Assembly: GCF_003334815.1 (NCBI RefSeq)
Contig: NZ_QOWO01000036.1
Strand: one strand, 5' to 3'
Length of the DNA: 37,286 nucleotides
Source of the DNA: Escherichia coli
Lineage (GTDB): Bacteria; Pseudomonadota; Gammaproteobacteria; Enterobacterales; Enterobacteriaceae
This document shows positions 32,720-35,203 of this stretch, piece after piece. Each line of letters opens with the position of its first letter. Position 1 is the stretch's first letter. The translations under genes and the position numbers were made by a program. The notes below the pieces were generated by a model. The model searched no databases and was not told where the DNA came from. It worked only from the letters and a program-made list of their open reading frames with translations.

Positions 32720-34063
32720 TTAAAGCAAACCACAGCGACGTTTACTGCGTTCTTCCGCTTCCTGGTAAAGCTGGAACTCATCCAAAACCGGACAACCCAA
32801 CGCCTGCTCAAATGCTTCGCGACTGGCATTACCGTGACTGCGTGTCTGCGTTTCATTACCCAGATTTGACTGGAAGATCCCCGCCGCGCTAACGGGCAAG
32901 AAATCTTCATAGGTGATGGGTTGCGCCACTACCCAACCACGTTCAATTAAGGGCTGTGGATCGTCTCCAGGATGAATCGCCTGACGATGCGCCTCACCCG
33001 AAGGCGTCAGACGGTACCGGAACCATGCCAACCCTTGCTGACGCATTAAAAACTCACTGTCAGGAAAAGTGCGGAAGGTTTCCTGTAAATGCATTTGGTG
33101 AGTGAGATTATCCTGCCCGGTTCCAGCGTTACGCAGAAGATCATCATACAGTTGTCGCCCTTTCGGCGTTAATGCCACGCCACGCAGCTCAATTTCACCA
33201 AAGCGCGCGGTATGCGTGCCCTGTTTCTGCCCCGCAAACAACACCGTCTCTTCCAGTGCTTTAAAGCTGGTCTGGCGTAGTAAAATCGGTACCTCGCGGC
33301 GCGGCGGCCCCTCGATGAGAATTTTGGGTTCAATTCCGCATTCAGGCATCATCGACTGCACCCGGTCAATATCCAGCGTACGTGGCGTCAGGTGGTTGAT
33401 ATGGCATCCAGGAAAACAGACCACATCAGCAATCAACCGATGTTCGTTGTGCAATGCGCGATAGGTTTCTTCATCTACCGTTGCTGACTGGTGCCAGCGA
33501 AACGTTTCCAGGGCTTCCTGCACAAACTCCTGTGCCTGTGTTTCGTTAAAACCGCCCTGCTGCTCATATTCCTCTAACAGTTGTCGACAACGTGGGGTGA
33601 AGATATCGCGCTGACGCAGAATCTCCGCCGCTTTCTGGCGCAAAATTTCGTTCTCGATAAGCTCAAGGCGGAGTAAGGAGGTAAAAACGCGGAAGGGATT
33701 ACGCGCCAGAGAAGCATCATCAATGGGCCGAAATGCTGTCGAATGTACCGGCACCCCTGCCTGCGAGAGATCGTAATAGCTCACCGGGTACATCCCCATA
33801 ATGGCAAACATCCGCCGAAGAGTAGCAAGCTCTTGTGCAGTCCCAACGCGAATCGCCCCATGACGTTCAACATTCAGTCGCGCCAGCTCGTCTGCATTTA
33901 CCATTTTTTCGTGCAGTTGAGGATTGTTTTCCAGCACAGCCAGATTCACATCAGCTACCAGTTCCAGCAGCGTGCCATATTGCGGAACTTCTTGCTGGTA
34001 CATGGCTGACATTGCCTGCGAAAACTGTTCCCGAATCTCATCCGCCGTGATGCTGTTCGCCAT
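32720..34063 (-). CDS. ydcJ: Uncharacterized protein (DUF1338-like)
   Basis: 447 aa, ATG at 34063; divergent from ydcI. Confidence 0.85.
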   Translation of the reverse strand: MANSITADEIREQFSQAMSAMYQQEVPQYGTLLELVADVNLAVLENNPQLHEKMVNADELARLNVERHGAIRVGTAQELATLRRMFAIMGMYPVSYYDLSQAGVPVHSTAFRPIDDASLARNPFRVFTSLLRLELIENEILRQKAAEILRQRDIFTPRCRQLLEEYEQQGGFNETQAQEFVQEALETFRWHQSATVDEETYRALHNEHRLIADVVCFPGCHINHLTPRTLDIDRVQSMMPECGIEPKILIEGPPRREVPILLRQTSFKALEETVLFAGQKQGTHTARFGEIELRGVALTPKGRQLYDDLLRNAGTGQDNLTHQMHLQETFRTFPDSEFLMRQQGLAWFRYRLTPSGEAHRQAIHPGDDPQPLIERGWVVAQPITYEDFLPVSAAGIFQSNLGNETQTRSHGNASREAFEQALGCPVLDEFQLYQEAEERSKRRCGLL

Positions 34064-34279
34064 AGTGTCTGCCTCCAGTGGTCAGTAATCTGGAGTGTAG
34101 GTAACCGCATTCACTCTTGCGGGAAGAATTTACAAACTGTGATCTCGCCGCGAAAACATCAATATTATCCATTTTGCTGTAACATAATTGCTTTAATTGT
34201 TAATAATATTTTGCAATCAAGTTATCATAATCAAACAACTTCACTTGTCAGCGACACCGCTTCGTTTTTAACATCGCTT

Positions 34280-35203
34280 ATGGAAAAAAATAGTCTGTTT
34301 AGTCAGCGCATCCGTTTGCGCCACCTTCATACATTCGTAGCTGTCGCACAACAAGGAACTTTGGGGCGCGCGGCTGAAACCCTTAATTTGAGTCAACCTG
34401 CGCTCTCTAAGACATTGAATGAACTGGAGCAGCTGACTGGCGCTCGCTTGTTTGAGCGTGGTCGTCAGGGGGCGCAACTTACCTTACCCGGCGAACAATT
34501 TTTAACGCATGCAGTCAGAGTTCTTGACGCCATCAACACTGCCGGACGGTCGCTTCATCGTAAAGAAGGTCTTAATAATGATGTCGTCAGGGTTGGTGCA
34601 CTACCTACTGCGGCACTGGGGATATTACCTTCGGTTATAGGTCAGTTTCATCAGCAACAAAAAGAGACGACCTTGCAAGTTGCGACAATGAGTAACCCTA
34701 TGATTCTGGCGGGTTTAAAAACCGGGGAAATCGATATCGGCATTGGTCGGATGTCAGATCCTGAACTGATGACCGGGCTTAATTACGAACTGCTGTTTCT
34801 TGAATCGTTGAAGCTGGTTGTCCGCCCTAATCACCCGCTACTTCAGGAGAACGTAACGCTAAGCCGGGTGCTGGAATGGCCGGTCGTTGTATCACCAGAA
34901 GGCACTGCGCCACGCCAGCATTCAGATGCATTAGTGCAGAGCCAGGGCTGTAAAATTCCTTCGGGTTGTATCGAAACGCTGTCTGCTTCGCTATCTCGTC
35001 AACTTACGGTTGAATACGATTACGTGTGGTTTGTCCCTTCTGGCGCTGTAAAAGACGACCTGCGTCATGCCACGCTGGTGGCCCTGCCTGTTCCGGGACA
35101 TGGTGCAGGCGAACCGATTGGAATACTGACCCGCGTAGATGCGACGTTCTCTTCTGGTTGCCAGTTGATGATTAACGCTATTCGAAAATCAATGCCGTTC
35201 TGA
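34280..35203 (+). CDS. ydcI: LysR-type transcriptional regulator
   Basis: ATG at 34280 giving 307 aa; N-terminal HTH (LRHLHTFVAVAQQGTLGRAAETLNLSQPALSKTLNELE). The ORF track extends 47 codons upstream. Confidence 0.8.
   Translation: MEKNSLFSQRIRLRHLHTFVAVAQQGTLGRAAETLNLSQPALSKTLNELEQLTGARLFERGRQGAQLTLPGEQFLTHAVRVLDAINTAGRSLHRKEGLNNDVVRVGALPTAALGILPSVIGQFHQQQKETTLQVATMSNPMILAGLKTGEIDIGIGRMSDPELMTGLNYELLFLESLKLVVRPNHPLLQENVTLSRVLEWPVVVSPEGTAPRQHSDALVQSQGCKIPSGCIETLSASLSRQLTVEYDYVWFVPSGAVKDDLRHATLVALPVPGHGAGEPIGILTRVDATFSSGCQLMINAIRKSMPF

What the first reader, a model, noticed from the sequence alone, without database searches (positions are those of the whole stretch)
32720..35203. Divergent LysR-type regulator and DUF1338-like gene pair of unclear function
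ydcI (LysR family) is transcribed divergently from ydcJ across a 216-bp AT-rich spacer containing an ATTGC...GCAAT inverted pair. This is the classic arrangement for a LysR regulator controlling its neighbour, but the target function is not evident to me from the sequence.
Basis: inference. Interest (0 to 1): 0.25.

Follow-up and report, generated by a model that had tools for sequence, protein, structure and literature searches.

The report
Orphaned PcaQ-type regulator beside HglS
This is the already annotated E. coli gene pair ydcJ (now HglS, an enzyme that turns 2-oxoadipate into D-2-hydroxyglutarate) and ydcI, a LysR regulator that looks like a leftover protocatechuate-pathway (PcaQ-type) regulator whose own target genes were lost, so "regulator next to its target" is probably not the right reading in E. 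coli.

Summary
ydcJ (32720-34063, minus strand) and ydcI (34280-35203, plus strand) diverge across a 216-bp spacer with 38% GC. The ATTGC/GCAAT pair is one of 16 such 5-nt pairs, close to chance, and is not conserved even within Escherichia.

The "unknown" target is known. YdcJ is HglS, a 2-oxoadipate dioxygenase/decarboxylase. It passes the NCBIfam equivalog cutoff, is 99.6% identical to PDB 2RJB, and its activity has been published for the E. coli enzyme.

YdcI belongs to the PcaQ clade. In Klebsiella, Kluyvera, Pseudocitrobacter and Cedecea, the pcaHG genes (protocatechuate 3,4-dioxygenase) sit between ydcI and hglS, next to a PcaQ-type operator (ATAAC-N5-GTTAT). Natural E. coli has lost both pcaHG and the operator.

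The E. coli spacer is two independent modules joined together. One is an hglS promoter module that stays with hglS whatever lies upstream. The other is a ydcI promoter/operator module that stays with ydcI.

The likeliest reading is that YdcI is an orphaned, autoregulated regulator now acting elsewhere. Direct control of hglS is neither shown nor excluded. This is a known, ordinary locus with a modestly new evolutionary explanation.

The parts
32720..34063 (-). ydcJ = hglS, encoding the Fe(II)-dependent 2-oxoadipate dioxygenase/decarboxylase (447 aa)
   Evidence: ORF. NCBIfam NF049974 equivalog, 739 bits against a cutoff of 550. Pfam PF07063, E=2.6e-160. PDB 2RJB differs at 2 residues, and 6W1G (P. 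putida HglS) matches at E=1e-156. H68, H224 and E292 are invariant, and R72 and E290 nearly invariant, in 19 diverse homologues. In vitro activity is published for E. coli YdcJ.
33186..33186 (-). SNP (A here, T in MG1655) causing Q293L in the GEIE(Q/L)RG motif of HglS
   Evidence: Only 1 of 4107 E. coli genomes with this segment carries it. In diverse homologues the column reads Q 69, E 20, A 8, S 6, L 1. Its effect on activity is unknown.
34064..34144 (-). hglS-proximal promoter/leader module. It contains the SD GGAGG, an ACA 5 nt before the AUG, CCTACACT (34101->34094, a sigma-S-like -10), AAATTCTTC (34131->34123) and the invariant GATCACA (34144->34138).
   Evidence: Conserved in 31 of 31 enterobacterial sequences whatever gene lies upstream: ydcI, pcaH, ppaC, an MFS gene, or none. 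Coordinates. The -10 and CRP-half-site readings are inference. ydcJ is listed among MazF-cleaved mRNAs with a value of 5, read here as the distance from the start codon (PMC5001579).
34145..34193 (.). Unconserved middle of the spacer, at the place where relatives carry extra sequence including a PcaQ-type box
   Evidence: Alignment of 19 adjacency-type spacers. E. coli is 216 bp against 227-378 bp in other genera, and the ATAAC-N5-rTTAT box is missing from E. coli, E. albertii, E. cloacae and E. asburiae. The best PWM score in the E. coli spacer is 2.8 bits.
34187..34217 (.). GCAAT (34213-17) inverted pair
   Evidence: Present, but it is one of 16 such pairs and is not conserved.
34194..34279 (+). 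ydcI promoter/auto-operator module. It contains TGTTAATAATATTTTGC (34198-34214, including the T-N11-A-type ATAATATTTTGCAAT at 34203-17), the dyad GTTATC-N7-AACAAC (34221-39), TTGTCA (34245-50) and TAACAT (34269-74). There is no SD before the ATG.
   Evidence: Strongly conserved in all adjacency-type spacers. It is also present directly upstream of ydcI when the neighbour is the 3' end of pcaG or is ppaC. Promoter-like hexamers come, and the same hexamers were predicted by RpoD SELEX (PMC3946193). [quoted passage not shown]
34280..35203 (+). ydcI, a PcaQ-clade LysR-type transcription factor (307 aa)
   Evidence: Pfam HTH_1 plus LysR_substrate. TIGR02424 PcaQ scores 287 bits (cutoff 303.8), and the next family scores 136. 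It is 47.5-48.6% identical to Ralstonia PcaQ. The closest solved structures are CatM and BenM.
35211..35229 (.). GC-rich hairpin between the convergent ydcI and trg genes, probably a shared terminator
   Evidence: Sequence. Fold energy -13.6 kcal/mol, z = -1.7. The terminator role is inference.

Best explanation
The locus is the known E. coli pair hglS (ydcJ) and ydcI.

Shown:
- ydcJ encodes HglS, which oxidatively decarboxylates 2-oxoadipate to D-2-hydroxyglutarate.
- ydcI encodes a LysR regulator of the PcaQ clade.
- In several Enterobacteriaceae the order is ydcI <- pcaG <- pcaH | PcaQ-type box | -> hglS.
- Natural E. coli has neither pcaHG nor the box.

Inferred:
- The enterobacterial ancestor carried a pcaHG-ydcI unit next to hglS. 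pcaHG was then lost repeatedly. In Escherichia and Salmonella the operator went too, leaving ydcI back to back with hglS.
- The 216-bp spacer is therefore two autonomous control regions joined end to end. One is an hglS promoter module (34064-34144, sigma-S-like -10 CCTACACT, invariant GATCACA upstream). The other is the ydcI promoter with its own autoregulatory operator (34194-34279).
- In E. coli, YdcI is an orphaned, autoregulated regulator that now acts on distant genes (gltA, nhaA and others in the literature).
- hglS is expressed mainly from its own promoter, induced on entry to stationary phase.
- Any YdcI effect on hglS would come only through the ydcI-proximal operator, which overlaps a weak distal leftward promoter.
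For: Identity of HglS.

PcaQ affinity of YdcI:
- 287 bits against a cutoff of 303.8, with the next LysR family at 136 bits. Orthologues score 284-300.
- The nearest non-enterobacterial relatives are annotated PcaQ of Ralstonia (47.5-48.6% identity), divergent from pcaHG.

pcaHG between ydcI and hglS:
- PcaH 365 bits and PcaG 265 bits, both above cutoff, in L009, L010, L013, L023 and L024 and in K. pneumoniae.
- These loci are scattered across the hglS tree, which favours repeated loss.

Operator:
- An ATAACC-N3-GGTTAT box lies 98-113 nt upstream of the pcaH ATG.
- A PWM built from the enterobacterial boxes finds ATAACCAGACGTTAT (18.8 bits) in the independent Ralstonia pcaH/pcaQ spacer. It resembles the S. 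meliloti PcaQ site ATAaccgggggatTAT.
- Nine adjacency-type genera keep the box as a relic.
- E. coli's best score is 2.8 bits, no better than shuffles.
- pcaHG is absent from 5422 of 5426 E. coli genomes, and the 4 hits appear to be engineered JME strains.

Module independence.

Outside Enterobacterales, hglS pairs with a different, GcvA-like LysR, with YdiJ and with AmaB.

Literature:
- YdcI ChIP-exo targets lie elsewhere.
- ydcI and ydcJ both rise at the transition to stationary phase in O157.
Against: - The ydcI-hglS neighbourhood is kept in 31 of 33 enterobacterial loci, more than a pure accident would suggest.
- In pcaHG-type loci the box lies roughly midway between the genes (117-134 nt from the hglS ATG), so it could serve both divergent genes.
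- In Pantoea and Mixta, hglS appears to be co-transcribed with a PcaK-like transporter gene that diverges from ydcI.
- The SELEX-predicted ydcI and ydcJ promoters share overlapping -10 boxes at 34223-34229. YdcI bound there could affect both.
- I could not see the ChIP-exo peak table, the ydcI-deletion RNA-seq data or any TSS data.
- The sigma-S and CRP assignments are pattern matches only. The GATCACA site centre is about -58.5 from the inferred +1, not the canonical -61.5.
- Gain of pcaHG rather than loss is not formally excluded.
Confidence: 0.62

Rival explanations
1. This is the classic LysR pair. YdcI binds the spacer and, in response to a small molecule (2-oxoadipate, 2-aminoadipate, D-2-hydroxyglutarate or a related dicarboxylate), activates or represses hglS while repressing itself.
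For: - Divergent orientation and conserved neighbourhood in 31 of 33 enterobacterial loci.
- Overlapping -10 hexamers of the predicted divergent promoters.
- A conserved dyad GTTATC-N7-rAyAAC and a T-N11-A-type element in the spacer, compatible with the published description of the YdcI motif.
- The Pantoea arrangement: ydcI divergent from an MFS-hglS unit.
- Co-induction of both genes at the stationary-phase transition.
- Elsewhere, hglS does have a divergent LysR partner.
Against: - The conserved elements next to ydcI stay with ydcI even when the gene on the other side is the 3' end of pcaG, so they are not an hglS promoter.
- hglS keeps its own module without ydcI in Lelliottia, in Erwinia, and behind ppaC in Citrobacter.
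- E. coli has no PcaQ-type box, and the boxes in Pantoea and Mixta are weak (4.5-8.2 bits).
- The LysR partner of hglS in other phyla is GcvA-like, not PcaQ-like.
- No published YdcI target list that I could read names ydcJ.
Confidence: 0.25
2. hglS belongs functionally to a hydroaromatic (quinate/shikimate to protocatechuate) catabolic island. Its enterobacterial role is tied to aromatic acid breakdown rather than lysine catabolism, under a shared YdcI/PcaQ regulon. E. coli keeps two remnants of that island.
For: - In Enterobacteriaceae the neighbourhood includes a PQQ dehydrogenase of the glucose/quinate/shikimate family, pcaHG, a PcaQ-like regulator and, in Erwiniaceae, a PcaK-like transporter.
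- Independently, one Halomonadaceae hglS paralogue clade sits beside a type II dehydroquinase, a shikimate dehydrogenase, a QuiC-like dehydroshikimate dehydratase and a PcaR-family regulator.
- ydcI is among the top vanillin-induced genes in E. coli (PMC5291986).
Against: - E. coli YdcJ performs the same 2-oxoadipate reaction as P. putida HglS, and HglS was specific for 2-oxoadipate among the keto acids tested.
- No step of the beta-ketoadipate pathway needs this chemistry.
- Adjacency of catabolic clusters can be mere island packing. For example, L037 has the GcvA-like pair and the qui genes side by side.
- This rests on only two independent associations.
Confidence: 0.12

Closest known systems
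HglS (PP_5260) of Pseudomonas putida, 2-oxoadipate dioxygenase/decarboxylase (PDB 6W1G/6W1H); Shigella YdcJ (PDB 2RJB)
   Same: - Full-length alignment at E=1e-156.
- The metal-binding His/His/Glu residues, the substrate Arg (R72, matching Arg74) and the V391/S392 loop (matching Val402/Ser403) are all present.
- The same reaction is shown in vitro for E. coli YdcJ.
   Different: - In P. putida the enzyme serves D-lysine catabolism, and relatives elsewhere cluster with AmaB, YdiJ and a GcvA-like LysR. In E. coli none of these is adjacent, and the source of 2-oxoadipate is unknown.
- This window's allele carries the rare Q293L change.
PcaQ, the LysR-type activator of protocatechuate (pca) genes in Agrobacterium, Sinorhizobium and Ralstonia
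   Same: - PcaQ is the best-matching family by a margin of about 150 bits, with 47.5-48.6% identity to annotated Ralstonia PcaQ.
- Orthologues in Klebsiella, Kluyvera, Pseudocitrobacter and Cedecea sit next to pcaHG with an ATAAC-N5-GTTAT box like the PcaQ operator.
   Different: - YdcI scores just below the curated equivalog cutoff (287 against 303.8).
- In enterobacteria the gene lies downstream of pcaHG and co-directional with it, not divergent from it.
- E. coli has no pca genes and no box.
- The E. coli protein is reported to bind gltA, nhaA, dtpA, lldP and gltP and to affect pH stress.
GcvA-like LysR paired divergently with hglS (with or without ydiJ and amaB) in Halomonadaceae, Rhizobiaceae and Ralstonia
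   Different: The regulator belongs to another LysR subfamily (GcvA model 275 bits, only 26-30% identity to YdcI), and those clusters include the downstream D-2-hydroxyglutarate dehydrogenase.
CatM/BenM of Acinetobacter, muconate-responsive LysR regulators of the beta-ketoadipate pathway
   Same: They are the closest solved structures to YdcI (E=1e-28 to 1e-21), and they sense dicarboxylate ring-cleavage products.
   Different: They are distant in sequence. NCBIfam scores are 75-103 bits against cutoffs of 580-600.

Membership tests
HglS / PF07063 (2-oxoadipate dioxygenase/decarboxylase) | Profile match above the curated cutoff over the full length | tested here: met
   NF049974 scores 739.2 bits (cutoff 550) over residues 5-444. 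PF07063 scores 534 bits.
HglS / PF07063 (2-oxoadipate dioxygenase/decarboxylase) | His-His-Glu metal site, substrate-binding Arg, and the Val/Ser substrate loop | tested here: met
   H68, H224 and E292 are invariant, and R72 and E290 nearly invariant. Alignment to 6W1G places R72 at Arg74 and V391/S392 at Val402/Ser403.
HglS / PF07063 (2-oxoadipate dioxygenase/decarboxylase) | Catalysis of 2-oxoadipate to D-2-hydroxyglutarate plus CO2 | not testable with these tools
   Published for E. coli YdcJ (PMC7286885). The Q293L allele of this window has not been assayed.
LysR-type transcriptional regulators | N-terminal HTH_1 domain plus C-terminal LysR substrate-binding domain, about 300 aa | tested here: met
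   PF00126 at residues 13-72 (E=4.6e-19) and PF03466 at residues 100-304 (E=7.5e-35), in a 307-aa protein.
PcaQ (TIGR02424 equivalog) | Score above the curated equivalog cutoff | tested here: not met
   287 bits against 303.8, a narrow miss. Orthologues score 284-300. The next family scores 136 bits.
PcaQ (TIGR02424 equivalog) | Encoded next to protocatechuate catabolic genes (pcaHG or pcaDCHGB) | tested here: not met
   Not met in E. coli, where pcaHG is absent from natural genomes. Met for orthologues in Klebsiella, Kluyvera, Pseudocitrobacter, Cedecea and RIT691.
PcaQ (TIGR02424 equivalog) | Cognate operator of the ATAACC-N4-GGTTAT type upstream of the target promoter | tested here: not met
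   The E. coli spacer's best score is 2.8 bits, P=0.38. Boxes of 12.6-20 bits occur in relatives, and an 18.8-bit box occurs in Ralstonia.
PcaQ (TIGR02424 equivalog) | Activation by beta-carboxy-cis,cis-muconate or gamma-carboxymuconolactone | not testable with these tools
   The effectors are named from my own knowledge (Parke 1993/1996). There are no data for YdcI.
Classic divergent LysR regulator-target pair | Regulator gene divergent from the target, sharing one control region | tested here: met
   Opposite strands separated by a 216-bp spacer.
Classic divergent LysR regulator-target pair | Dyad T-N11-A recognition site about 65 nt upstream of the target promoter, conserved with the target | tested here: not met
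   The conserved dyads lie in the ydcI-proximal module, which travels with ydcI and not with hglS. The hglS module has no such dyad. Transcription starts are unknown, so positions are inferred.
Classic divergent LysR regulator-target pair | Target expression depends on the regulator | not tested
   No accessible dataset. The Gao 2018 supplement is not held, and Jennings 2011 is not held.

The most novel reading that the evidence does not exclude
YdcI is a still-functional PcaQ-type sensor stranded in E. coli. On this reading it still responds to a protocatechuate-pathway or related C6/C7 dicarboxylate, possibly 2-oxoadipate. Together with hglS it would be the remnant of a hydroaromatic catabolic island. 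Plant or lignin-derived aromatic acids in the gut would then feed into YdcI's known effects on citrate synthase, pH homeostasis, persistence and long-term starvation fitness, and into hglS expression.
Probability: 0.2. Interest if true: 0.55.

Novelty: already known. Interest (0 to 1): 0.27.

Why it matters
The gene pair itself is textbook annotation.

YdcI, though, is a much-studied but poorly understood regulator. It has been linked to acid and alkaline stress, gltA repression, persister frequency and recurrent loss-of-function in long-term starvation. No paper in the searchable library mentions both ydcI and protocatechuate.

Recognising YdcI as an orphaned PcaQ orthologue gives three things:
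- a concrete list of candidate effectors;
- a concrete operator (ATAAC-N5-GTTAT) to test;
- an explanation for why its E. coli regulon looks scattered and why the gene is so easily lost.

It also warns against reading divergent LysR neighbours as regulator-target pairs without comparative checks. Finally, it leaves the physiological role of HglS in E. coli, including the source of 2-oxoadipate, as a clearly stated open question.

Tried and rejected
- The word-indexed homologue search with YdcJ returned only E. coli and Shigella sequences, so it was useless for context. The representative search and a genome scan replaced it.
- An Rfam scan of 33900-34400 found nothing meaningful: one ssnA hit at 16 bits against a gathering score of 37. 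There is no known riboswitch or sRNA in the spacer.
- The Gao 2018 supplements and Jennings 2011 are not held. I could not check for a ChIP-exo peak at ydcI/ydcJ, and I cite Salmonella autoregulation from memory only.
- The best PcaQ-type box in the whole window lies inside ydcI (34624, 15.0 bits). I considered it as an internal operator. I rejected it because the synonymous sites are not conserved across genera, with scores from -14 to +15, and about one such hit is expected by chance in 37 kb.
- I considered a CRP class I site at the invariant GATCACA. Only one half-site is conserved, and its centre is about -58.5 from the inferred start rather than -61.5. It stays a weak inference.
- I considered an SD-sequestering hairpin in the hglS leader (CUCCAG/CUGGAG, -8.4 kcal/mol, z=-2.6). 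There is one compensatory double change, in Siccibacter. The arms overlap the -10 and the SD, and the 5' arm may lie upstream of the transcript, so this is unresolved.
- I looked for a YdcI box upstream of the Pantoea/Mixta MFS-hglS unit. Only weak matches turned up (4.5-8.2 bits).
- I first took the window for K-12 itself, because identity had been rounded to 100%. It has 9 SNPs and different ends.
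Full report
**What is there**

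The window holds a 447-aa ORF on the minus strand (32720-34063) and a 307-aa ORF on the plus strand (34280-35203), with 216 bp between them. Over 1447-37209 the window is 99.975% identical to E. coli K-12 MG1655, with 9 SNPs. RefSeq annotates the same intervals as ydcJ/hglS and ydcI, flanked by opgD and trg. The spacer has GC 0.38, against 0.50 for the window.

**The inverted pair**

ATTGC (34187-91) and GCAAT (34213-17) exist, but their arms are only 5 nt long. The spacer contains 16 such pairs, against 8.9 +/- 3.7 in dinucleotide shuffles, so this pair has no individual significance. The repeat finder does not report it. In a 20-sequence alignment of enterobacterial spacers, the ATTGC arm falls in unconserved sequence. 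Both arms differ in another E. coli strain, and the ATTGC arm also differs in E. albertii. T-N11-A occurs 20 times, which is what base composition predicts.

**The "unknown" target is known**

- YdcJ scores 739 bits on the NCBIfam equivalog model for HglS, against a cutoff of 550, and matches Pfam HGLS end to end.
- It differs at two residues from the solved Shigella YdcJ structure 2RJB. It aligns over its full length with P. putida hydroxyglutarate synthase 6W1G (E=1e-156).
- The metal-binding His/His/Glu residues, the substrate arginine (R72) and the V391/S392 substrate loop are all in place.
- Thompson et al. showed that PP_5260 converts 2-oxoadipate to D-2-hydroxyglutarate with Fe(II), and that the E. 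coli homologue YdcJ has the same activity in vitro. They left open where 2-oxoadipate comes from in E. coli (PMC7286885).

**What YdcI is**

YdcI has the two LysR domains. Its best family model by a wide margin is PcaQ, the pca-operon activator: 287 bits against a curated cutoff of 303.8, with the next family at 136 bits. Orthologues from other genera score 284-300.

A tblastn search against plasmid and chromid records gives annotated PcaQ of Ralstonia solanacearum as the nearest non-enterobacterial relative (47.5-48.6% identity). Cupriavidus, Burkholderia and several hundred rhizobial records follow. In Ralstonia that pcaQ is divergent from pcaHG.

**Comparative context**

I scanned one genome per species with an HglS profile and obtained 80 loci. 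In 31 of 33 Enterobacterales loci a YdcI orthologue (65-97% identity) lies upstream of hglS on the other strand. In 47 loci from Halomonadaceae, Rhizobiales, Burkholderiales, Xanthomonas, Pseudomonas and Sphingomonas there is none. The two genes are not always adjacent:

| Genes between ydcI and hglS | Loci |
|---|---|
| None (spacer 216-378 bp) | 20 loci |
| pcaH + pcaG, co-directional with ydcI | L009, L010, L013, L023, L024 (Pseudocitrobacter x2, RIT691, Cedecea, Kluyvera) |
| PcaK-like aromatic-acid transporter, co-directional with hglS | Pantoea x2, Mixta |
| Mn-dependent pyrophosphatase | Three Citrobacter |

PcaH scores 365 bits and PcaG 265 bits, both above cutoff. Sources for the table are.

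K. pneumoniae has the order esterase, hglS, pcaH, pcaG, YdcI orthologue (83% identity), then a PQQ dehydrogenase of the glucose/quinate/shikimate family. Salmonella has the E. coli layout with a 292-bp spacer. On an hglS tree the pcaHG-bearing loci are scattered through the Enterobacteriaceae clade. This fits one ancestral arrangement followed by repeated loss better than it fits repeated insertion at the same spot. A sensitive blastn search with Kluyvera pcaHG hits only 4 of 5426 complete E. coli genomes. All four are JME strains with host listed as "not applicable", at 69% identity, and they appear to be engineered.

**Operators**

In every pcaHG-type locus, the pcaH-hglS spacer carries a dyad ATAACC-N3-GGTTAT. 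Its centre lies 98-113 nt from the pcaH ATG and 117-134 nt from the hglS ATG. It resembles the mapped S. meliloti PcaQ site ATAaccgggggatTAT (PMC5002191).

Nine adjacency-type genera that lack pcaHG at this site still carry the box in the middle of the spacer. E. coli, E. albertii, E. cloacae, E. asburiae and Salmonella do not.

I built a weight matrix from 14 enterobacterial boxes, whose own scores range from 12.6 to 20.1 bits. Its results were:
- 18.8 bits on ATAACCAGACGTTAT in the independent Ralstonia pcaH/pcaQ spacer;
- 2.8 bits at best in the E. coli spacer, no better than shuffles (P=0.38).

**The E. coli spacer is two modules**

The hglS-proximal block is GATCACA (34144->34138) ... AAATTCTTC ... 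about 22 nt ... CCTACACT (34101->34094) ... GGAGG ... ATG. It is conserved in 31 of 31 sequences whether the upstream neighbour is ydcI, pcaH, ppaC, an MFS gene or something else.

The ydcI-proximal block (34194-34279) contains TGTTAATAATATTTTGC, the dyad GTTATC-N7-rAyAAC, TTGTCA and GTTTTTAACAT. It is conserved in all adjacency-type spacers. It also sits directly upstream of ydcI when the other neighbour is the 3' end of pcaG or is ppaC. It therefore belongs to ydcI, not to a shared divergent control region.

[quoted passage not shown] They also fit the autoregulation and own-promoter binding reported for Salmonella YdcI (Jennings 2011, recalled from memory because the paper is not held).

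Shimada's RpoD-SELEX prediction gives TTAATA-17-TATCAT for ydcI and CTGACA-16-TATGAT for ydcJ, and marks the spacer as H-NS bound. My scan finds the same hexamers, with overlapping -10 boxes at 34223-34229. Because these elements are conserved where there is no leftward gene to serve, the "ydcJ" reading of them is probably incidental.

**Inferred mechanism**

- CCTACACT matches the sigma-S-selective extended -10 (KCTAYRCT, from memory: Weber 2005, Typas 2007). This would put the hglS start near 34087.
- Both genes rise at the exponential-to-stationary transition in O157.
- The invariant GATCACA looks like a CRP half-site, but it is centred near -58.5, off the canonical position. I treat it as an unidentified conserved site.
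- ydcI has no Shine-Dalgarno sequence, and a conserved TAACAT lies 5-6 nt before its ATG. This suggests a leaderless mRNA and may relate to the report that YdcI changes in translation, not in mRNA level, under acid stress.

**Published work on YdcI**

Published work links YdcI to gltA repression, proton-transporter genes, pH stress, gadBC, persister formation and recurrent loss-of-function in long-term starvation. None of it mentions ydcJ. No paper in the library holds both "ydcI" and "protocatechuate". ydcI is among the seven genes most induced by vanillin in E. coli, which is suggestive for a PcaQ-type sensor but no more than that.

**hglS elsewhere**

Outside Enterobacterales, hglS is often divergent from a GcvA-like LysR regulator. 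It clusters with the D-2-hydroxyglutarate dehydrogenase YdiJ (1537 bits) and L-piperidine-6-carboxylate dehydrogenase (825 bits), which is the lysine/2-aminoadipate context. A second Halomonadaceae paralogue clade lies beside quinate/shikimate genes: a type II dehydroquinase, a shikimate dehydrogenase, a QuiC-like dehydratase and a PcaR-family regulator. This is a second, independent association of hglS with hydroaromatic catabolism. I record it as a hint only.

**Verdict**

The locus is known and ordinary. The best-supported reading is that ydcI is an orphaned PcaQ-type regulator left beside hglS after loss of pcaHG and its operator, with hglS running from its own promoter. Direct YdcI control of hglS is possible (I give it about 0.25) but has no positive evidence in E. 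coli.

Noticed in passing
window 33186 (ydcJ codon 293): The window's HglS has Leu where MG1655, Shigella 2RJB, P. putida HglS and all 120 closest database proteins have Gln (GEIEQRG), next to the conserved Glu residues. Only 1 of 4107 E. coli genomes shares the allele (strain D53-1, from a dog). In diverse homologues the position is Q/E/A/S, and Leu occurs once.
   Followed up: partly
window 1-1446 and 37210-37286: The window is not MG1655. The left 1446 nt encode the N-terminal part of a T6SS VgrG protein, a junction present in 2987 E. coli genomes but not in MG1655. The last 77 nt are the start of an IS150 copy upstream of hokB, a junction present in 942 genomes. Nine SNPs are scattered between (2325, 5871, 8373, 12780, 21670, 24756, 26428, 26829, 33186). 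It is probably a natural strain very close to K-12.
   Followed up: partly
window 34624-34638 (inside ydcI): This is the best PcaQ-type box in the whole 37-kb window (ATTACCTTCGGTTAT, 15.0 bits, within the range of genuine boxes), and it lies inside the ydcI coding sequence. It is kept in Escherichia but not at synonymous sites in other genera, so it is probably chance.
   Followed up: yes
window 34264-34282: ydcI has no Shine-Dalgarno sequence, and an invariant GTTTTTAACAT ends 5 nt before the ATG, with TTGTCA 18 nt upstream. ydcI may be transcribed as a leaderless mRNA. A ribosome-profiling paper reports that YdcI is regulated at translation under acid stress.
   Followed up: no
window 34064-34101 (minus strand, hglS leader): CUCCAG (34095->34090) can pair with CUGGAG, which overlaps the Shine-Dalgarno sequence (-8.4 kcal/mol, z=-2.6). 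Siccibacter has a compensatory CUCGUG/CACGAG version. A conserved ACA lies 5 nt before the AUG, and ydcJ is listed in the published MazF regulon table with a value of 5.
   Followed up: partly
L082 (K. pneumoniae strain 176) 2887-4226: In this strain hglS matches in two reading frames, which indicates a frameshift, and it is not annotated. It may be a pseudogene there, while pcaHG and the ydcI orthologue are intact.
   Followed up: no
L006, L009, L011, L012, L015-L017, L019, L023-L033 and others, directly downstream of hglS: A roughly 503-aa carboxylesterase/lipase-family gene follows hglS on the same strand in 20 enterobacterial loci. It is absent from E. coli and from some Citrobacter, and it matches no NCBIfam model at E<=1e-30. 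It may be an operon partner of hglS.
   Followed up: no
L051, L053-L055, L058, L060, L065, L075 (Halomonadaceae): One hglS paralogue clade sits next to quinate/shikimate catabolic genes: a type II 3-dehydroquinate dehydratase, a shikimate dehydrogenase, a QuiC-like dehydroshikimate dehydratase, a PcaR/PcaU-family regulator and a TRAP transporter. The other paralogue sits with a GcvA-like LysR and YdiJ.
   Followed up: partly
H1, E. coli WEM25 (NZ_CP061530.1 2009964-2012981): The match to 32600-35300 comes in two pieces spanning 3018 bp instead of 2701. hglS is annotated as two fragments, so an insertion appears to disrupt hglS in this strain.
   Followed up: no
window 34178-34274: The conserved short elements TGTAAC, TGTTAA, GTTATC, TTGTCA and TTTAAC recur at intervals of about 20-24 bp through the ydcI module. 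This periodic array could reflect binding of a LysR tetramer or of H-NS; the spacer is marked H-NS bound in Shimada 2014.
   Followed up: no
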